DNA of 44,609 nucleotides. Source: Candidatus Hodarchaeota archaeon (GTDB taxonomy: Archaea > Asgardarchaeota > Heimdallarchaeia > Hodarchaeales > Hodarchaeaceae). Position numbers and translations under genes: made by a program. This document shows positions 4,192-38,186 of the stretch, piece after piece; the stretch's first letter is position 1, and the number at the start of each line of letters is the position of its first letter. Where the stretch lies: positions 1 through 44,609 of the forward strand of contig JAEOTM010000113.1 of the NCBI GenBank assembly GCA_016839815.1. Direction: 5' to 3'. The notes below the pieces were generated by a model. The model was not told the DNA's origin. It did not search any database and worked only from the letters and a program-made list of their open reading frames with translations.

Positions 4192-4818
4192 TTGATAGAT
4201 AATATGCAATATTCTGGGGAATATTTGGTAAAATTGGCTAGAAGAACCATTGAAACTTATTTAAAAAGCAAAATTAAGATCAAACCGCCAAGAGATGCAC
4301 CTAATAATCTTATGGATCAATCGGGAGTGTTTGTAACACTTCATCGTGTTGATCAAGGAGATAAACCTATATTAAGAGGATGTATAGGTAGAATACAGAG
4401 TCCAGGCAGTACTCTCATTCAATCAACAATTGATTCTGCAATAGATGCAACTATTCACGATTACCGATTTCCTAATGTCAATCTTTCTGAATTAGATAAG
4501 ATTACTGTCGAAGTAACAATTCTAACCGTACCTGAAAAAATCATTGTAAAGGATCCAAAGGAATACTTTGATATTATTCAGATTGGTCGTCATGGACTAC
4601 TTGCAGAACATGGTTCAATACAACGTGGATTGTTATTACCCCAGGTACCTGTTGAACAGGGGTGGAATAAAGAAATGTATTTAGATCATGTCTGTCAGAA
4701 AGCAGGATTATCCTCGAAAGCTTGGTATAATCTGGAAACCACAATTTATAAGTTTGAAGGCTTTATATTTTCAGAGCTTACCCCCAATGGAGAAATAAAA
4801 CTAAAATCAGAGCATTAA
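4192..4818 (+). CDS. AMMECR1/AmmeMemoRadiSam protein A family
   Basis: GVFVT, LRGCIG, DYRF, GLLLPQV, CQKAG motifs. Confidence 0.95.
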   Translation: MIDNMQYSGEYLVKLARRTIETYLKSKIKIKPPRDAPNNLMDQSGVFVTLHRVDQGDKPILRGCIGRIQSPGSTLIQSTIDSAIDATIHDYRFPNVNLSELDKITVEVTILTVPEKIIVKDPKEYFDIIQIGRHGLLAEHGSIQRGLLLPQVPVEQGWNKEMYLDHVCQKAGLSSKAWYNLETTIYKFEGFIFSELTPNGEIKLKSEH

Positions 4819-31177: not shown

Positions 31178-33382
31178 TTATTCTTCTTCTGAATAAAATT
31201 CATGTAATATTTCTAAATCTGGAGATTGATACAAAGCAATATATTCTTCTTTAAAGTCATTCAGTAATCTTTCTATTGTAAAATCAGCTACCTGAGACTC
31301 TTTCAGAGCAATTTTCTTTTCAATAAGTAAAGACATACGTTTTCGTCTCAATTTCTCCTCTAATCGCAATTCCTGCTTCCTAATCTCCTCCTTAACCGAA
31401 ATATCTGTTAGATATAGCTCCTCATATACCCAAATTTCTAATGGAGGATCGATAGAAGTTCGATCTCTTTCTGTATAGTTCCCCAGTGGTAATTCAATAC
31501 AAGGTATACAATTCTCATTAAAAACTTGGAGAGCTTGATCAGAAAATTTTGGAGTTCCCTCTGGAGTAAGCACTCCTCGTATCCCATAATTAATTAGTGT
31601 GAGGGCAGTTTGGGCACCTCCACCGCTAGGATCTAGCACTAAAACAATATCACCCTCATGTAATCCATAATTTATATTAGTATCCCGAATTGCTGAGTCA
31701 GAGAAGGAGTTAAGGGGTTTTAAAGGGAATTCATGACCTTGAACCCAAAAATTCTTTATTTCTTTTAACTTTCTTAATTCTGATTCATTCTTTTTTATCT
31801 TGTGTTTAAGTAATCGATTTTCCTCTTTGATTTGTCCTACTTCTCTTTCAACAACATTCGATACTTTCTTTCGAGTTTGTTGGGAATTTTTGACTCTTGC
31901 TTTTTCTAATAGATTGCTTAACCTCTTTATTTCAAGAGTTTGATCTCGAGATCGATCCCTCCAATATTTGACTTCCTGGTCAATTTTATGCATTTCCTCT
32001 GATATGGTGTCAAATTTCGCTTGCCATTGTATATTTTCGTTTTTTAAGGAATTTACTAGATGTTTAAAATCAGTTTCTTTTATCTCAGTGACGTGAGGAT
32101 CCTCTCTTCCATGAATTAAAGATATAGCATTTGTAATACTATTCCCAGCAAGAACTAAGCGTTGGATTTCAGCAAGATGCGGAATTAATGTGGAATGAGA
32201 TTCCTCAATTATCCTTTTGACTTTTTGAAATTGAGGTTTAAGGAGATTATATCCCTTTAAAGCTCCAAATAATGCATCTCTTTCATGAGAGTTCAAATGA
32301 CTATAATTTACCGTTAAATCAGAATAATCTTGAAGGTAATTTCTTTTTTGAGCGGCTGTAGTAAGCACTGAAGGGGTTAATAATTTAGCTCCTGTAATTT
32401 TCGCAACACGTTCAACCATAGCAGGTGCAGGAATGACATCCGCAGCAACACAGCTCACTTTCCCAAATTTTGTTGAAATGCGGATAATTTCTGATATTCC
32501 ACATTCACGTTTTGAGCCCAAATAAAGTACATTTCCACGATTGCAATCTAGTATCGCAATCCCAGTAGTTGTTCCTGGATCTAATCCCAAAATCACATTT
32601 TTTAGCGATTTAGCTGAAGGAGCCATAGCAACGTCTAGTGGCTTAAAGTCTAGGGTCGATCTAGTGATTCTTTGTAGAGTTACTTTTACTAAATCAGTGT
32701 TTAGAGGTTTAATCTTGATTTGTACAGAGGATATCAGCTCATTTTCTAATTGAACTAAATAAACACGTTTTTGTGGATATTTAAATACATCCCACTTAAG
32801 ATTTTGATCTTTGAGAATAGCTACTACTTCTCTTGAAGCTTGTTGAACAGCTGTTCCACTGATCCGTTCATATCGAGGAGCGGACCATCCTCCCTTTCCA
32901 TGGGATTTTTTCCGGGTTATCCGAATTTTAATTTCTTCTTCGAACGCTTCAACTATAAATCCTACTCTTTTTATACATAATCGCGCTGCTACTTCCGCTG
33001 TTTCCACAGCTGACAATTTTTTAGCCTTATAAGTAAAACTTATTGATTTTCTGAGGTTATGTTTAGTGATCAGTTGGGAAAGTTTTTCCATCCCTGTTCG
33101 TGGATTTCCAGTCACCTGTACCAAGAGTGAAGTTGGAGGGATCAATTCGAGTAGTCGAATTATTCCTTGTGCGTTTGGTGCTAATTCAAAGATATTATCT
33201 ATAGCAATATAATCTGGTTTAATATCCTGAATTTTCTTTAATAGTTGACGTTTATTCAGTTTCACGTGTTTTTCAAGGTGATCGTTGTTTATGATCACTA
33301 ATGAATAGATGCGAGAGGTTTTTTTCCCTCTTTCTTTAAATGCTAAAACATCAATGCCAAATATGATAAGTGAGCTCTTCAT
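31178..33382 (-). CDS. DUF460 protein (RNase H-like fold and coiled coil)
   Basis: AIDNIFEL, LVQVTG, GGWSAPRY, GLDPGTTTG, HERDAL. Confidence 0.9.
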   Translation of the reverse strand: MKSSLIIFGIDVLAFKERGKKTSRIYSLVIINNDHLEKHVKLNKRQLLKKIQDIKPDYIAIDNIFELAPNAQGIIRLLELIPPTSLLVQVTGNPRTGMEKLSQLITKHNLRKSISFTYKAKKLSAVETAEVAARLCIKRVGFIVEAFEEEIKIRITRKKSHGKGGWSAPRYERISGTAVQQASREVVAILKDQNLKWDVFKYPQKRVYLVQLENELISSVQIKIKPLNTDLVKVTLQRITRSTLDFKPLDVAMAPSAKSLKNVILGLDPGTTTGIAILDCNRGNVLYLGSKRECGISEIIRISTKFGKVSCVAADVIPAPAMVERVAKITGAKLLTPSVLTTAAQKRNYLQDYSDLTVNYSHLNSHERDALFGALKGYNLLKPQFQKVKRIIEESHSTLIPHLAEIQRLVLAGNSITNAISLIHGREDPHVTEIKETDFKHLVNSLKNENIQWQAKFDTISEEMHKIDQEVKYWRDRSRDQTLEIKRLSNLLEKARVKNSQQTRKKVSNVVEREVGQIKEENRLLKHKIKKNESELRKLKEIKNFWVQGHEFPLKPLNSFSDSAIRDTNINYGLHEGDIVLVLDPSGGGAQTALTLINYGIRGVLTPEGTPKFSDQALQVFNENCIPCIELPLGNYTERDRTSIDPPLEIWVYEELYLTDISVKEEIRKQELRLEEKLRRKRMSLLIEKKIALKESQVADFTIERLLNDFKEEYIALYQSPDLEILHEFYSEEE

Positions 33383-33397
33383 AATTAGAAAACCATT

Positions 33398-34306
33398 TCA
33401 GTTCTGGGGTCGATCCAACATTTTAAGTATCTCAGAAATGTCATAATGAGTTTTTACTGAAAATTTTTTCTCAAAATAATTCAGAATATTCTGACAGTCA
33501 CGCGATAAGATTTCTATGGCCTGAGGTTCCTCTGTCGTGACATATTGGGGCCAATCAATTAATACAGGGTAATCTTCCTCATTTAAGCGGATATTGTACT
33601 CACTTAAATCTCCGTGGATATATCCGTGGAGAACACTATTTTTGATTTCTTGGATAATATTGTGAAAGAGCAACGCAATTTCCTGTTCGGTTCCAAGGTC
33701 ACTTTTTTTCATGCGATAGAGATCTTGTCCTTTTACAATTTCCATAACAACTAGATGTCGATTCTGAGCAATGGGTTTTGGAACACTGGTACTAGCTTTA
33801 TAAAGATCCTTAAGAACTTTATACTCTCTTCCAGCAGATAATCTGCTTTCGTACAAAGGAGAAAGATGTCTTTTTTCTGCAATAAATGCACGACTCTTTC
33901 TAGTGGCACGAAAATCGAGTTTTCCCAGTCGATGGAACTTGATGATAAATTCATTTGCATTATCATCCATTCCAAGATGGATAGTACTTTCCTTACCTGC
34001 ACCGATTTCAGGGCCAATTTGAGCCAAGATGCCTTTCTCAACCAGTGCTTTAAGAGCGAGAGCATCATATCCAATAAAGGTGAGAGCTGTACCAAGGTAA
34101 TGACGTTGTGCAAGTAAAACAAGCTTCATTTTTCTTAATCGTTTTAATCGAATTTCAACCTTCTTTTCGGCATATTTTATAAATCGAGCAATCTCTTCTA
34201 GAGGTACAAATTCATGTTTAGCCATAAGGATTTCAATAACGGAAAGAATTCGAAAATCAAGTGGTTCGAGTTTACGAAAGTATTGAGTAATGGATAAACG
34301 CGCCAT
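33398..34306 (-). CDS. rio2: RIO2 kinase (SSU maturation)
   Basis: N-terminal wHTH (DFRIL..IE..HEFVP), GKES, KFHRLG, HGDLSEYNI, IDWPQ. Confidence 0.95.
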   Translation of the reverse strand: MARLSITQYFRKLEPLDFRILSVIEILMAKHEFVPLEEIARFIKYAEKKVEIRLKRLRKMKLVLLAQRHYLGTALTFIGYDALALKALVEKGILAQIGPEIGAGKESTIHLGMDDNANEFIIKFHRLGKLDFRATRKSRAFIAEKRHLSPLYESRLSAGREYKVLKDLYKASTSVPKPIAQNRHLVVMEIVKGQDLYRMKKSDLGTEQEIALLFHNIIQEIKNSVLHGYIHGDLSEYNIRLNEEDYPVLIDWPQYVTTEEPQAIEILSRDCQNILNYFEKKFSVKTHYDISEILKMLDRPQN

Positions 34307-34330
34307 AATTTTCGCTCATACAAAGCTAAT

Positions 34331-34422
34331 TGGTCAGTAAGTGCAACTGTCGTCATCAGCAATATGAATTAAAAATTATTAATTCAATTAGCCTCCGTAG
34401 ACCGTCTTTTTCATCATCAGGG
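34331..34422 (-). ncRNA. Box C/D guide RNA (targets peptidyl-transferase-centre H93 region)
   Basis: C ATGATGA (34417-11); guide GACGGTCTA; D' CGGA; AT hairpin; C' TGATGA; guide CGACAGTTGCACTTA; D CTGA (34337-34). Confidence 0.8.
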
Positions 34423-34590
34423 ATAATGAGAATTACAAAACCCATTTTATCCCCTCAAAGACTTAAGTAAACATAGATAGTTCGCATTAATTTTCTTTTC
34501 CAACCTAATGATAATATGATTTTTCCAGCTGTATAACCGAATTACAAGTCTAGTAAAATATTTGAATAACTTTCAGAACTTCGAGTCGAA

Positions 34591-36123
34591 ATGAAATCAA
34601 TTCAAAATGGCATTTTACTGATTTTAGTGGTGGGATTCTCCATTGGATTTTTTCCACTTATCGTGGAAGCACAGTACACGGAAACTCGAGCTGAAGAGTC
34701 ACAATTAGTACTATTAAGACCTTCGTTTGCCAATCCAGTAATCGTTGAGGAAGGAGTGGTGTTTGAGATTCATGTAAAATCTGTAAACGAGATCCATCCT
34801 ATTGAGATACAATTAATTTCATTTTTTATCACCTATAATCTTTCTATCAACGAATGGAGATTTAAGGATGAAACTATGAATTATTCTGTATTAACGCCAG
34901 AAGGAATTATCCCTCAAATATATGGAATTATCCTAGTATTCCCAACGGATACGATATTTCAGCCAAATTCAGTGATGGTTACTTCTCAAGAAAGGCAGGA
35001 TAAATCGACAATTGATTTCATCCACATAACAGATACACAACTTGATGGAGTACCAGAGCGAACTGAACAAGCGGAAATTTTGATCTCGGAAATTAATCTT
35101 TTACGACCAGATCTTGTTTTAGTTACAGGTGACCTAATTGAGGGTTTAGCTACCGTTGATGGCCAACCAATGGGAGGAAATGAGCAATATCCAATAATTT
35201 ACAATACATTGAAGGAATTAAAGGTACCTGCTTTGATCTGTAATGGTAATCACGATTTCTATATCAATGATTACGGAAATGGTGTAGAACTTTGGGAAAA
35301 ATACTTCCTTCCAATCGAATACATTAGCCAACTCTCTTACAAGAATGCATTATTTGTGGGGGCTTCAACTTATGATTACGATGGATTAACTCCCGAGCAA
35401 AGTAATTCAATCATTAATATATTTAATCAAAATATAAATAGAGTAAATCTTTTTTTTGCCCATTCTGACTATGCTTCACAATTTGAAACAATCTATTCAC
35501 AAGGAAATGTCATTGCATCATTCTTAGGACATGAACATATAGGATCTGTTCATACCGTAGGTTCTACACTTGAAATAATTACTGATAATTCAATTCCGTT
35601 TCCTCTTCATACAAGTGCACCAGGACATTTTCGTATGTGCCAAATAAATAATACTACACTGGAGTATTATGACGAAATTGAGAGCCTTAAGCTTTCATCA
35701 ACTTTAAATGAAACACAACTCGAAGAAAATGTCACATTAGTTGAGGGCACGCTTAATAATGACCATACAAACTATAATTTCTCACAAATAACTGAAGAAA
35801 TTGTACTTACAGGGATGTGGGAAACTTTCTCATCTGAAAATATTTCCAATATTGTACCATACTATAATTCAACTCACACTATGCTTGAAATTCAGTTAGT
35901 AAATATAACACAAGGACTACATAGTTTTAAGGTGAATCTGTCAAAAAAAGAAGACTATACTACTGACATTGAGACCTCCGCGCAAAGTTCCTCTCCCTCA
36001 TCAAAGACTAGTTCTCAGGTTGATACTTCATCTGAAAAATCATCTGGACTACAGTACCTCACTTTTTCTGCCAGCATTTTATTTGTACTAGTAAAAAAGA
36101 GAAAAAAAGAGGATAGAAACTAG
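34591..36123 (+). CDS. Secreted, C-terminally anchored calcineurin-like metallophosphoesterase
   Basis: Signal peptide; DTQ, TGD, GNHD, AH, GHEH; Ser-rich linker, TM, KKRKK. Confidence 0.88.
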   Translation: MKSIQNGILLILVVGFSIGFFPLIVEAQYTETRAEESQLVLLRPSFANPVIVEEGVVFEIHVKSVNEIHPIEIQLISFFITYNLSINEWRFKDETMNYSVLTPEGIIPQIYGIILVFPTDTIFQPNSVMVTSQERQDKSTIDFIHITDTQLDGVPERTEQAEILISEINLLRPDLVLVTGDLIEGLATVDGQPMGGNEQYPIIYNTLKELKVPALICNGNHDFYINDYGNGVELWEKYFLPIEYISQLSYKNALFVGASTYDYDGLTPEQSNSIINIFNQNINRVNLFFAHSDYASQFETIYSQGNVIASFLGHEHIGSVHTVGSTLEIITDNSIPFPLHTSAPGHFRMCQINNTTLEYYDEIESLKLSSTLNETQLEENVTLVEGTLNNDHTNYNFSQITEEIVLTGMWETFSSENISNIVPYYNSTHTMLEIQLVNITQGLHSFKVNLSKKEDYTTDIETSAQSSSPSSKTSSQVDTSSEKSSGLQYLTFSASILFVLVKKRKKEDRN

Positions 36124-36137
36124 AATCTATCCATTTT

Positions 36138-38186
36138 TTATTTCGGTTTCGACCGTCTAAACATAAGAACCACTGGAATTAATACTAATAATTCCAAAAA
36201 TACATAACTAGTTGATGAACTTGTGGTGGTAGTTGTAGGCTCAGGAGTATCTGTTGTGGTTGTTGTAGTTGTAGTTGTGGGTTCAGGAGTATCTGTTGTG
36301 GTTGTAGGTAGTTCCCCCACCTTCGTAATGGTCACGGATTGAGTAGTATTTGTACCTACGCTTACTCGAACATCAACAAATGTTGTACTACCTTCAGTAA
36401 ATTGATTCTCAATTTCACCTACATCTGAGTCATAGACCCCTGATACCATGTGAAAGCGTACATGAGCTTCAGATAGGGAGTGAGCTAAAGTATTATTGAT
36501 TGTAGCACTTAAACTTGTTAGAGAACCATCATTTACATCAGAATAAGCCAGTGAAACATTATTGATTGGATTGGATGGAGCATAATACATCGCACCATAG
36601 TTTGTTTGTACATAGTCTAGATCAGGAGGATTTGGAGTATCATAGAGGTACTTCGTAATATTATCATTCTCCACCTCAATCAAGCGGTACCCTGGAAAAT
36701 CTCCTACTGTTTCAGTTGTACCAATGTGTAAAAAATCTCCCAGCTCAGTATATACATTTGCATGATAATGTCCATGGAAAAAGGCATCTGCACCAATTGT
36801 TTGAAGTTTATTAACGATCGCTGTACTTTCAGTCGATGAAAGAATGGGTTCAGGATCAGGTTCCCCATACGTTACTAAAGGATGATGAAGCATGAGAAAC
36901 TTCATATCGGCTGAGCTTATTTCATCTAGAGAATTCATAACGAAATTGTAGGCATTGATTCCTGCTCCAACATCAAATTGACGATCAGAACTATCACCAC
37001 GTACAAATGCATGAGTTCCATACCTGAAAATCCCTGATGATGGGCCTATAATATTATTCCACATTCCCCTGCCACTTCCCCACTCCCAGATTCCCAGTGA
37101 GGCCGTACCTTCCCAGTCACCATGATTTCCCATTACCGAAACGACAGGTATGTCATCTAAATATAGATTACACCATCTTTTGAAGTTAGATAAAGCAATT
37201 TCGTCGGTCCACTCGGTTAAATCCCCTGCAACCAGGATAAACTCAGGATTGACAATATTTACTTCTTCTAAAACATGTGTAAAATTCCCAATACCTGTTT
37301 TTTGACTTCGAAAATCATGACCTGCTGAACCATCACGATGGAACTGGGGATCTGCGAACACAACAAACCGATAAGACGATTTGAATTCTTCAACCACTTT
37401 AATAGCGTTTGGTTCCCAATCAAATTGGGTATTTCCATCAATTAAGGCTGAAACATTCATATCATAAAGCCCTATTGCTGCTGGTAAATTGAAAGTAATT
37501 TCCCATAATTCAGTACTAAATATAGAACTTATTACAGGTTCTATTGAGTTACCTACTCCACTTAGAGATATATGCCAGTTTGATGCAGATTCCGATGCAT
37601 TGACTTTAACAGTAACTTGTGATGATTGGAGTAAAATTTGTGGTTCAGCAAATGTAGGACTCAAAACAGTGACTCTATCCTCCAAGAGTTGAGAATTGAT
37701 TAGCCAGTAATTATTATTATTCTTGTCTTGATTTCCAACGCCGTCAACAAAATAACAGGCAAGATAATCAGGTTTATCATTGAGTATAATTGAGAGGGAC
37801 CAAATTCCTGAACTTCCATTCTTGGACATTGGAGACTTCGCGAATCGATAAGGAGCAACCACTTCTGTATCCTCTGGCCACATTTCGGGAGAGGGGGGAA
37901 CAGCACCAAACGGTTTATTGGTTAAAAGTTGGTTACCTCGCAGATACATTCCCCACATTAGAGAGATATTTTCTGCACTAGGAGTAAGAACTGCATTAGT
38001 TGCTGATGGATCGTAAAATATCGTGACTTCTTCTCCAACATTGGGAATTGAAGGAGTCCAGCTTACAGGATCATCCGCAGAAGTTCCTCCACTTATACCT
38101 TGAGTATTAGAACTTCCAGTCAATAAGAGCAAAATTAGGCCAATAATAATCAATGTTTTAATTTTATTTACATTTCCTATTCTCAT
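36138..38186 (-). CDS. Secreted CBM-like + metallophosphoesterase surface protein
   Basis: N-domain VTIFYDP..WG..PM..W....FVDG..DKNNNNYW; DPQ, AGD, GNHG, HHP, GHYH; Thr-rich linker, TM, basic tail. Confidence 0.88.
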   Translation of the reverse strand: MRIGNVNKIKTLIIIGLILLLLTGSSNTQGISGGTSADDPVSWTPSIPNVGEEVTIFYDPSATNAVLTPSAENISLMWGMYLRGNQLLTNKPFGAVPPSPEMWPEDTEVVAPYRFAKSPMSKNGSSGIWSLSIILNDKPDYLACYFVDGVGNQDKNNNNYWLINSQLLEDRVTVLSPTFAEPQILLQSSQVTVKVNASESASNWHISLSGVGNSIEPVISSIFSTELWEITFNLPAAIGLYDMNVSALIDGNTQFDWEPNAIKVVEEFKSSYRFVVFADPQFHRDGSAGHDFRSQKTGIGNFTHVLEEVNIVNPEFILVAGDLTEWTDEIALSNFKRWCNLYLDDIPVVSVMGNHGDWEGTASLGIWEWGSGRGMWNNIIGPSSGIFRYGTHAFVRGDSSDRQFDVGAGINAYNFVMNSLDEISSADMKFLMLHHPLVTYGEPDPEPILSSTESTAIVNKLQTIGADAFFHGHYHANVYTELGDFLHIGTTETVGDFPGYRLIEVENDNITKYLYDTPNPPDLDYVQTNYGAMYYAPSNPINNVSLAYSDVNDGSLTSLSATINNTLAHSLSEAHVRFHMVSGVYDSDVGEIENQFTEGSTTFVDVRVSVGTNTTQSVTITKVGELPTTTTDTPEPTTTTTTTTTDTPEPTTTTTSSSTSYVFLELLVLIPVVLMFRRSKPK
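36241..36305. repeat. 23-bp direct repeat in the Thr-rich linker (TTTDTPE x2)
   Basis: tcaggagtatctgttgtggttgt at 36241 and 36283. Confidence 0.85.

What the first reader, a model, noticed from the sequence alone, without database searches (positions are those of the whole stretch)
34331..34422. Second box C/D RNA, upstream of rio2, aimed at the yeast Cm2959-equivalent site
Seen: C ATGATGA, guide GACGGTCTA, D' CGGA, an internal hairpin (TGAATTAA/TTAATTCA), C' TGATGA, a 15-nt guide and D CTGA, ending about 27 nt before the rio2 start. Known consensus: archaeal/eukaryotic LSU GGGUUUAGACCGUCGUG contains UAGACCGUC, a 9-bp match. D+5 lands on the first C (E. coli 2590; yeast Cm2959, snR73; vertebrate U35). 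At about 90 nt with a long D'-C' insert it is longer than compact 50-60-nt archaeal sRNAs and closer to snoRNA size. I could not confidently assign the second guide (CGACAGTTGCACTTA); it may be an orphan or non-rRNA guide.
Basis: partly seen in the sequence, partly recalled or inferred. Interest (0 to 1): 0.78.

Follow-up and report, generated by a model that had tools for sequence, protein, structure and literature searches.

The report
Hodarchaeal rRNA methylation guide RNA
This is a real small guide RNA (box C/D type) just upstream of the rio2 gene in an Asgard (Hodarchaeales) archaeon; both of its guides match the large ribosomal RNA, so it is a well-supported new example of an already known kind of RNA.

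Summary
The motifs are all present, on the minus strand. The D box ends exactly 27 nt before the rio2 start codon.

A covariance model finds the RNA in all 22 genomes of the genus, 23 copies in total, always about 15-30 nt upstream of rio2. Only the four boxes and the two guide cores are invariant. The stretch between D' and C' varies in sequence but always folds as a hairpin.

The D spacer is therefore the canonical 12 nt, not 15.
- The "orphan" D guide has a perfect 10-11 bp match to the genus's own LSU rRNA, in the helix-35 loop. The predicted methylated base is the equivalent of E. coli U746.

**D' guide.** It pairs with UAGACCGUC, and the +5 rule selects the equivalent of E. coli 2590. 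That site corresponds to yeast Cm2959 and human Cm4506, as claimed.

**Limits on novelty**
- The same guide is already catalogued in Ignicoccus hospitalis sR27.
- It also occurs in two other Asgard families, there upstream of purA.
- The snoRNA-like length comes from a hairpin insert that two species lack.

**Gaps.** The host's own LSU exons are not assembled, and no RNA data were available.

The scan noted the same family in another genome (e1-5553564).

**Verdict:** new member of a known kind.

The parts
34411..34417 (-). Box C (AUGAUGA)
   Evidence: UGAUGA is invariant in 19 aligned homologues. It is present in all 23 copies.
34398..34410 (-). D' spacer and guide AAAAGACGGUCUA. The core GACGGUCU is invariant. 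The fifth nt upstream of D' is G34402.
   Evidence: The guide is complementary to LSU UAGACCGUC (E. coli 2586-2594). That target is intact in the same-genus LSU of G004 and G007. The +5 rule gives C2590 (numbering checked).
34394..34397 (-). Box D' (CGGA)
   Evidence: C, G and A at positions 1, 3 and 4 are invariant. Position 2 is G, C, A or U across the genus: CGGA, CCGA, CAGA, CUGA.
34358..34393 (-). Internal hairpin that closes the C'/D' motif. Outer stem is GGC/GCU; inner stem is UGAAUUAA/UUAAUUCA.
   Evidence: The sequence varies, but every copy folds as a hairpin that starts right after D' and ends right before C' (z -1.7 to -4.9). It is a 13-nt mini-hairpin in G001 and G016. The outer 4 bp show compensatory changes: GC to AU twice, UA to CG three times, CG to UA five times.
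34350..34356 (-).
   Evidence: AUGA.GA is invariant. The fifth position is C, U or A.
34338..34349 (-). D spacer and guide CAGUUGCACUUA (12 nt). The core AGUUGCACUU is invariant. The fifth nt upstream of D is A34342.
   Evidence: The core has a perfect match to AAGUGCAACU in the LSU of G001, G016, G007 and G002. This aligns to the E. coli 743-752 helix-35 loop, so the predicted methylated U corresponds to E. coli U746.
34334..34337 (-). Box D (CUGA)
   Evidence: Invariant in all copies.
34307..34333 (-). 27-nt spacer between box D and the rio2 start codon
   Evidence: The spacer is about 15-30 nt in all 23 loci. That is too short for a separate promoter. In most species it holds a GGG about 8-12 nt before the ATG.
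33398..34306 (-). rio2 (302 aa), the co-oriented downstream gene
   Evidence: Pfam RIO domain 1.2e-45 and Rio2_N 3.3e-21. The sRNA-rio2 order is kept in all 22 genus genomes.
34419..34454 (-). Hairpin directly 5' of box C (GGGGAUAA...UUAUCCCU). It overlaps a GATAA(A/T) TATA-like motif. Its role is unresolved.
   Evidence: It folds in the window. It is significantly stable (z<=-2) in 11 of 22 loci and absent in about 4-5.

Best explanation
The feature is a dual-guide archaeal box C/D sRNA, 84 nt from box C to box D.

**Proposed mechanism (inferred from family knowledge).** L7Ae binds the C/D and C'/D' kink-turn motifs, and Nop5 and fibrillarin complete the particle. Each guide then pairs with pre-23S rRNA, and fibrillarin 2'-O-methylates the nucleotide paired to the fifth guide position upstream of D' or D.
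- The D' guide would modify the C equivalent to E. coli 2590, in helix 93 of the peptidyl-transferase region. This is the same site as yeast Cm2959.
- The D guide would modify the U equivalent to E. coli 746, in the helix-35 loop, a modification hot spot in bacteria near the exit tunnel.

**Relation to rio2 (inferred).** Only about 15-30 nt separate box D from the rio2 start codon in every species. The RNA is therefore most likely transcribed with rio2 and cut out of its 5' leader.

**Shown here:** the boxes, the spacer lengths, conservation, hairpin covariation, guide-target complementarity in same-genus rRNA, and the presence of the protein genes.

**Inferred only:** expression as a small RNA, methylation itself, and co-transcription.
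For: 1. **Layout.** All 23 copies read C box, 13-nt spacer, D', hairpin, C', 12-nt spacer, D. The invariant columns are exactly the boxes and the two guide cores.
2. **Distribution.** The model finds it in 22 of 22 genus genomes at 73-108 bits. It is also found in three named GenBank MAG contigs (JAEOTC010000038.1, JBHLKY010000014.1, JBHLKC010000007.1), each about 20-25 nt before rio2.
3. **D' guide target.** UAGACCGUC is intact in the same-genus LSU of G004 and G007.
4. **D guide target.** The match is 10/10 in four same-genus LSUs. Five LSUs from other families of the class differ there at 2-3 positions (ACGUGCAAUU, AUAUGCAAUU). The guide therefore tracks the genus's own helix-35 sequence.
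5. **Chance estimate (my arithmetic).** A fixed 10-mer and a fixed 9-mer both matching about 4.4 kb of rRNA has a joint probability of roughly 7e-5.
6. **Hairpin.** The internal stem shows compensatory changes, and every copy folds.
7. **Machinery.** The genome encodes fibrillarin (272 bits) next to Nop5 (223 bits), plus two L7Ae-family proteins.
8. **Precedent.** The same D' guide (ACGACGGUCUC + CUGA) is in the RNA-seq-supported Ignicoccus hospitalis sR27 (PMC4644070 supplement).
Against: - There is no expression or methylation data. No RNA run was listed for this DNA.
- The window's own genome lacks the two LSU exons in its assembly, so targets are shown only in congeners.
- There is no conserved terminal stem flanking C and D.
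- The D' box is non-consensus at position 2.
- The D' spacer is 13 nt rather than 12.
- One LSU contig binned with G001 (C57) reads UACACCGUC at the site. It is only about 65% identical to every other LSU piece of the genus, against about 83% among those pieces, so it is probably misbinned.
Confidence: 0.86

Rival explanations
1. The element is mainly a cis-acting leader of the rio2 mRNA. Its kink-turns bind L7Ae or a full C/D particle to control rio2 translation or stability, and trans methylation is secondary or absent.
For: - It sits a fixed 15-30 nt before the rio2 ATG in 23 loci.
- There is no room for a separate rio2 promoter.
- Most species have a GGG (Shine-Dalgarno-like) 8-12 nt before the ATG, so rio2 seems to have a leader.
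- L7Ae binding to mRNA 5' UTR k-turns is reported in archaea (PMC5539422, abstract seen).
- sRNAs co-transcribed at the 5' ends of genes are known (PMC6009581).
Against: - A pure protein-binding leader would not need two invariant spacers that each match LSU rRNA. One of them tracks a genus-specific rRNA sequence.
- An sRNA with the same D' guide sits by purA, not rio2, in two other families.
Confidence: 0.06
2. It is a box C/D particle that acts chiefly as an rRNA folding chaperone. It would hold helix 35 (domain II) and helix 93 (domain V) together during assembly, with methylation dispensable.
For: - Both guides are conserved together in 22 species and target LSU regions about 1,850 nt apart.
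- From my own knowledge of 50S structure, both regions lie near the peptidyl-transferase centre and tunnel entrance.
- The Pyrobaculum sRNA study says orphan guides of dual-guide sRNAs may still help rRNA folding and that dual guides are strongly implicated in ribosome assembly (PMC6009581). Dennis et al. report 23S methylation hot spots mostly close to the peptidyl-transferase centre (PMC4644070).
Against: - Nothing here separates chaperoning from methylation.
- The box and spacer geometry is exactly what methylation requires.
- In f13 and f27 the partner D guide is not conserved.
Confidence: 0.05
3. It is a DNA-level element: a conserved divergent promoter or operator between rio2 and the metallophosphoesterase gene that resembles a C/D RNA by chance.
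For: - It lies in a 284-bp divergent intergenic region.
- A TATA-like GATAA(A/T) motif and inverted repeats lie just upstream.
Against: - Four boxes in the correct order with 13/12-nt spacing and two rRNA-complementary spacers are invariant.
- The intervening sequence varies while keeping base-pairing. That is the signature of an RNA, not an operator.
Confidence: 0.02

Closest known systems
Ignicoccus hospitalis C/D box sRNA sR27 (IHOsR27; Dennis et al. 2015, PMC4644070, Additional file 1)
   Same: The D' guide is ACGACGGUCUC followed by D' CUGA. That is the same register on UAGACCGUCGU, so the predicted target is the same (E. coli 2590 equivalent). It has the dual-box archaeal layout and RNA-seq support.
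   Different: It comes from a crenarchaeon and is about 62 nt long with no D'-C' hairpin. Its D guide (CUCUUCUCUCAAG) is different. I did not examine its genomic context. Common ancestry versus convergence was not tested.
Yeast snR73, human SNORD35 (U35A/B), Arabidopsis AtU35
   Same: They guide 2'-O-methylation of the same LSU nucleotide: yeast Cm2959, human Cm4506, Arabidopsis Cm2949 (PMC8817022; PMC2656528).
   Different: They are eukaryotic snoRNAs. No match to their Rfam models appears even at E<=10. From my own knowledge, they have weak or absent C'/D' motifs. The similarity is limited to the guide dictated by the target.
C/D sRNAs with the same D' guide in two other families of the same GTDB phylum (f13 5/5 genomes, f27 4/4)
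   Same: They have C box, (U)ACGACGGUCU(U/C), then CCGA or CUGA, a short GC-closed loop, C' AUGAGGA, a spacer of about 11-14 nt and D CUGA. They are likely orthologues of the D' half.
   Different: They are compact, about 60-65 nt. The D guide is not conserved and is unrelated to AGUUGCACUU. They lie upstream of adenylosuccinate synthetase, not rio2. The full-length model R1 was run only on the class (83 genomes), which does not include these families.
Thermoproteus tenax sR152 (PMC4644070)
   Same: It targets helix 93. Its D guide hits the E. coli C2606 equivalent. Its D' spacer contains ACGGUCUA, complementary to 2586-2593.
   Different: Its D' box is degenerate, so methylation of 2590 is uncertain. 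Its partner guide is on the opposite strand of the same helix, not in helix 35.

Membership tests
Archaeal box C/D sRNA (2'-O-methylation guide) | Terminal box C (RUGAUGA) and box D (CUGA) | tested here: met
   AUGAUGA and CUGA are present. UGAUGA and CUGA are invariant in 23 copies.
Archaeal box C/D sRNA (2'-O-methylation guide) | Internal C' and D' boxes in the order C-D'-C'-D | tested here: met
   D' is C(N)GA and C' is AUGA(N)GA. Both are invariant at their G.A-forming positions.
Archaeal box C/D sRNA (2'-O-methylation guide) | Guide spacers of about 10-12 nt between C and D' and between C' and D (PMC7994747) | tested here: met
   The spacers are 13 nt and 12 nt in every copy. The D' spacer is one nt over the usual range.
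Archaeal box C/D sRNA (2'-O-methylation guide) | At least 8-9 bp of complementarity to rRNA or tRNA, placing a nucleotide opposite position +5 | tested here: met
   The D' guide makes 9 bp with LSU 2586-2594. The D guide makes 10-11 bp with the LSU helix-35 loop. This was shown in same-genus rRNAs. The host's own exons are not in the assembly.
Archaeal box C/D sRNA (2'-O-methylation guide) | Terminal stem juxtaposing C and D for the kink-turn | tested here: inconclusive
   No conserved complementary flanks lie directly outside C and D. From my own knowledge, many archaeal sRNAs have minimal stems or are circular.
Archaeal box C/D sRNA (2'-O-methylation guide) | Length about 50-70 nt (PMC7994747) | tested here: not met
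   It is 80-84 nt from C to D in 21 copies because of a D'-C' hairpin. It is 61 nt in G001 and G016. Length is typical of the family, not defining.
Archaeal box C/D sRNA (2'-O-methylation guide) | Host encodes L7Ae, Nop5 and fibrillarin | tested here: met
   All three are found in the genome.
Archaeal box C/D sRNA (2'-O-methylation guide) | Expressed as a discrete small RNA, with the target actually methylated | not testable with these tools
   No RNA run was listed for this DNA.
SNORD35 / snR73 snoRNA family (homology) | Match to the family's covariance model | tested here: not met
   A cmscan of 34280-34470 at E<=10 lists only sub-threshold, unrelated C/D families. The best is sR11 at 17 bits against a cut-off of 39.
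SNORD35 / snR73 snoRNA family (homology) | Guides methylation of the LSU C equivalent to yeast C2959 | tested here: met
   Position 2590 by E. coli numbering lies 38 nt after U2552. The same offset holds for yeast 2921 to 2959 and human 4468 to 4506.

The most novel reading that the evidence does not exclude
The guide RNA is made from the 5' leader of the rio2 mRNA. Assembly of the C/D particle on that leader would couple production of a large-subunit methylation guide to the output of a small-subunit maturation kinase. This would be an archaeal forerunner of eukaryotic snoRNAs hosted in ribosome-related genes. The semi-conserved hairpin just 5' of box C would be part of the processing or control signal.
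Probability: 0.12. Interest if true: 0.55.

Novelty: new member of a known kind. Interest (0 to 1): 0.33.

Why it matters
- **Catalogue gap.** My full-text searches for Asgard with box C/D, fibrillarin and sRNA terms, and for Hodarchaeales with snoRNA, returned no paper that lists C/D guide RNAs of Asgard archaea. This gives a secure example with both targets assigned, plus a covariance model that recovers it across the genus.
- **Ancestry of a eukaryotic site.** A methylation site found across eukaryotes (yeast Cm2959, human Cm4506) is also guide-targeted in Hodarchaeales, in two other Asgard families and in a crenarchaeon. The site is therefore probably ancient in archaea, not an Asgard-eukaryote novelty.
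- **Co-evolution.** The second guide tracks a genus-specific helix-35 loop sequence, which is a clear case of guide and target evolving together.
- **A testable question.** The strict linkage to rio2 invites a test of whether the RNA is co-transcribed with and processed from the rio2 leader.

Tried and rejected
- **Own rRNA.** Family searches found no LSU or SSU in G000. The three other TAGACCGTC sites in the genome are not rRNA. The only LSU-like piece, C192, is a 3'-terminal fragment that starts after the target. Targets had to be read from congeners.
- **L001 (G001:C57).** This LSU has UACACCGUC with a compensating C2606G. I first saw it as a possible refutation. I rejected it as probably misbinned because it is about 65% identical to all other LSU pieces of the genus, against about 83% among those pieces.
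- **Rfam.** There is no match at gathering thresholds in the window apart from two tRNAs. A permissive scan of the locus gave only sub-threshold C/D families.
- **Model outside the genus.** Hits of 28 bits or less in the class proved to be unrelated or coding sequence.
- **tRNA and mRNA targets.** Among the 15 tRNA genes ARAGORN finds in the MAG there is no match better than one mismatch to the D' target and none to the D target. Genome-wide counts of both target words are at or below the chance expectation.
- **Yeast equivalent of the D-guide site.** Papers gave no helix or sequence for Um898, and no yeast 25S sequence was available. I leave any eukaryotic counterpart of the helix-35 site undetermined.
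- **CCC/GGG stem.** I considered a stem between CCC 5' of box C and GGG before the rio2 ATG. It is present in many species but not all, and not in the window, so I did not pursue it.
- **Promoter.** A GATAA(A/T) motif lies 20-36 nt before box C, but the distance is not constant and the motif is also one arm of the 5' hairpin. The transcription start cannot be placed from sequence.

Full report
**What is in the sequence**

The feature lies on the minus strand. Reading 5' to 3':

| Element | Sequence | Coordinates |
|---|---|---|
| Box C | AUGAUGA | 34417-34411 |
| D' spacer (13 nt) | AAAAGACGGUCUA | 34410-34398 |
| Box D' | CGGA | 34397-34394 |
| Internal hairpin (36 nt) | - | 34393-34358 |
| Box C' | AUGACGA | 34356-34350 |
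| D spacer (12 nt) | CAGUUGCACUUA | 34349-34338 |
| Box D | CUGA | 34337-34334 |
| Spacer to rio2 (27 nt) | - | 34333-34307 |

The next feature is the ATG of ORF 34306..33398. That ORF is Rio2, with Pfam RIO domain E=1.2e-45 and Rio2_N E=3.3e-21. Its C' box TGATGA and 15-nt guide are one possible reading of the letters, but comparison with homologues shows the register is 3 nt off.

**Conservation**

- A DNA search of the 22 genomes of the same GTDB genus found 73-87% identical stretches in 16 of them, counting the window's own, plus shorter partial matches in three more.
- An alignment of 19 copies (A1) has these invariant columns: UGAUGA, GACGGUCU, C.GA, AUGA.GA, AGUUGCACUU and CUGA. These are the four boxes and the cores of the two spacers. 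The rest varies.
- A covariance model built from that alignment (R1) finds one copy in each of the 22 genomes (two in G005) at 73-108 bits. In 61 other genomes of the class nothing scores above 28 bits, and those weak hits are unrelated sequence.
- All 23 copies parse as C, 13 nt, D', hairpin, C', 12 nt, D.
- D' is CGGA, CCGA, CAGA or CUGA. C' is AUGACGA, AUGAUGA or AUGAAGA. Only the positions that do not form the sheared G.A pairs vary (the G.A-pair assignment is from general knowledge of k-turns).
- The D'-C' segment differs in sequence between species but always folds into a hairpin that starts right after D' and ends right before C' (z -1.7 to -4.9). Its four outermost pairs show compensatory changes.
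- G001 and G016 carry a 61-nt version with only a 13-nt mini-hairpin. The extra length of the window's copy is therefore an insertion into an otherwise compact archaeal sRNA.

**Organism and machinery**

- Named GenBank contigs that carry close Rio2 relatives are labelled Candidatus Hodarchaeota (two) and Hermodarchaeota (one) MAGs. Each has the sRNA about 20-25 nt before rio2.
- The window's genome encodes fibrillarin next to Nop5, and two L7Ae-family proteins.

**Target of the D' guide**

- GACGGUCUA is complementary to UAGACCGUC, and the +5 rule selects the first C.
- In the E. coli rrlH sequence the corresponding letters are U2586 to C2594, with A2590 at that place.
- The host MAG has no assembled LSU exon that covers this site.
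- Two congeners do have it. G004 (L014) and G007 (L056) both read GCUGGGUUUAGACCGUCGUGAGACAGGUC.
- A third LSU contig, binned with G001, reads UACACCGUC with a compensating change on the other strand. It is only about 65% identical to all other LSU pieces of the genus, while those are about 83% identical to each other. I treat it as misbinned.
- A published table equates yeast Cm2959 (snR73), human Cm4506 (U35A/B), Arabidopsis Cm2949 (AtU35) and Dictyostelium Cm3292. It anchors Um2921 = Um4468 38 nt upstream (PMC8817022). The offset from U2552 to 2590 is also 38.

**Target of the D guide**

- The invariant core AGUUGCACUU is complementary to AAGUGCAACU.
- That word occurs once, perfectly, in the LSU 5' parts of G001, G016, G007 and G002.
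- In the window's copy the match extends to 11 bp.
- In an alignment with E. coli 23S it falls on positions 743-752, the loop of helix 35. The predicted methylated U aligns with U746. From my own knowledge, E. coli carries m1G745, pseudouridine 746 and m5U747 there.
- LSUs from other families of the class read ACGUGCAAUU or AUAUGCAAUU at this place. The guide thus matches the genus's own version of a variable loop. This argues for real pairing and explains why the two-guide RNA as a whole is confined to the genus.
- No tRNA or other genomic target stands out.
- I could not establish whether eukaryotes methylate the equivalent nucleotide.

**How widespread the D' guide is**

- The pattern UGAUGA, 4-7 nt, ACGGUCU, N, CNGA occurs in 33 of 400 genomes of the phylum. 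Its reversed control occurs in 1.
- Apart from the genus, the hits are all five genomes of one family (f13), all four of another (f27), and two singletons that look like chance.
- The f13 and f27 hits are compact sRNAs of about 60-65 nt with the same D' guide but unrelated, non-conserved D guides.
- In one genome checked from each of these families the RNA lies upstream of adenylosuccinate synthetase, not rio2.
- The RNA-seq-based catalogue of Dennis et al. contains Ignicoccus hospitalis sR27, with ACGACGGUCUC followed by CUGA. This is the same guide in the same register (PMC4644070 supplement).
- That paper also reports helix 93 as a methylation hot spot in thermophiles.
- The site is therefore guide-targeted in distant archaea as well as in eukaryotes.
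- Rfam models of snR73 and SNORD35 do not match the locus even at E<=10. Shared ancestry with the eukaryotic snoRNAs is not shown.

**Relation to rio2**

- Box D ends about 15-30 nt before the rio2 ATG in all 23 loci.
- That leaves no room for a BRE/TATA promoter between them.
- Most species have a GGG 8-12 nt before the ATG, which suggests an mRNA with a leader.
- The simplest reading is one transcript from a promoter upstream of the sRNA, with the sRNA excised from the rio2 leader. This is an inference.
- Such co-transcription at the 5' ends of genes has been described for archaeal sRNAs (PMC6009581). There, the overlapping guides usually lose their targets. Here both guides keep theirs.
- Upstream of box C there is a hairpin (34454-34419). 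It is significantly stable in about half of the species and missing in some. It overlaps a TATA-like motif, and I cannot tell which role matters.

**Verdict**

This is a genuine, conserved dual-guide archaeal box C/D sRNA. Confidence is about 0.86 without RNA data. Both targets lie in LSU rRNA. It is a new member of a known kind.

The eukaryote-like aspects (size, Cm2959 site) do not set it apart from other archaeal guides. The rio2 linkage is specific to this genus.

An earlier first-stage note on another genome (e1-5553564) describes what appears to be the same family 23 nt upstream of rio2, with a D guide of CGAAAGTTGCACTTA. That note left the guide unassigned, and the assignment made here applies to it.

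Noticed in passing
G007:C8 (L155:13938-14757, L155:6368-6670, L154:1760-2069, all minus); G002:C65; G012; G020; G010:C12:515019-515329; own genome G000:C192:6317-6367: Genomes of this genus carry several stand-alone copies of the last roughly 250-310 nt of 23S rRNA (Rfam LSU positions 2721-2973, including the sarcin-ricin loop). They are 75-83% identical to the LSU 3' end of congener G004. In G007 two such copies lie 8 and 26 kb downstream of the real 3' end on the same strand. This could be the footprint of integrative elements that target the 3' end of the 23S gene.
   Followed up: partly
G007:C8:54309-54628 (L056/L155): A roughly 320-nt insertion, intron-like, interrupts the 23S gene between the E. 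coli 2577 and 2578 equivalents. That is only 8 nt upstream of the D' guide's target duplex.
   Followed up: partly
L001 = G001:C57:307-3242: This is a complete LSU rRNA on a 4.7-kb contig. It is only about 65% identical to the other LSU pieces of the genus and has a G2588C/C2606G swap in helix 93. It is probably a misbinned contig from another organism.
   Followed up: partly
window 34419-34454 (minus strand): A hairpin GGGGAUAA...UUAUCCCU lies directly 5' of box C. Stem sequences differ between species, and it is significantly stable in 11 of 22 loci. It overlaps a TATA-like GATAA(A/T) motif. It could be a precursor structure, a control element or a coincidence.
   Followed up: partly
L134-L141 (families f13 and f27 of the same phylum): These are compact C/D sRNAs with the same D' guide. 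In one genome checked from each family (L137, L139) the RNA is co-oriented with and upstream of adenylosuccinate synthetase. An unrelated conserved sequence follows the sRNA in f13.
   Followed up: partly
whole genome G000: ARAGORN finds only 15 tRNA genes in this 89.5%-complete, 4.2-Mb MAG. Many tRNAs may be missed, for example intron-containing or split genes, or they may be unassembled.
   Followed up: no
window 31178-33382 (minus) and 34591-38186: Downstream of rio2 is a 734-aa DUF460 protein. Divergent from the sRNA are two large calcineurin-like phosphoesterase proteins.
   Followed up: no
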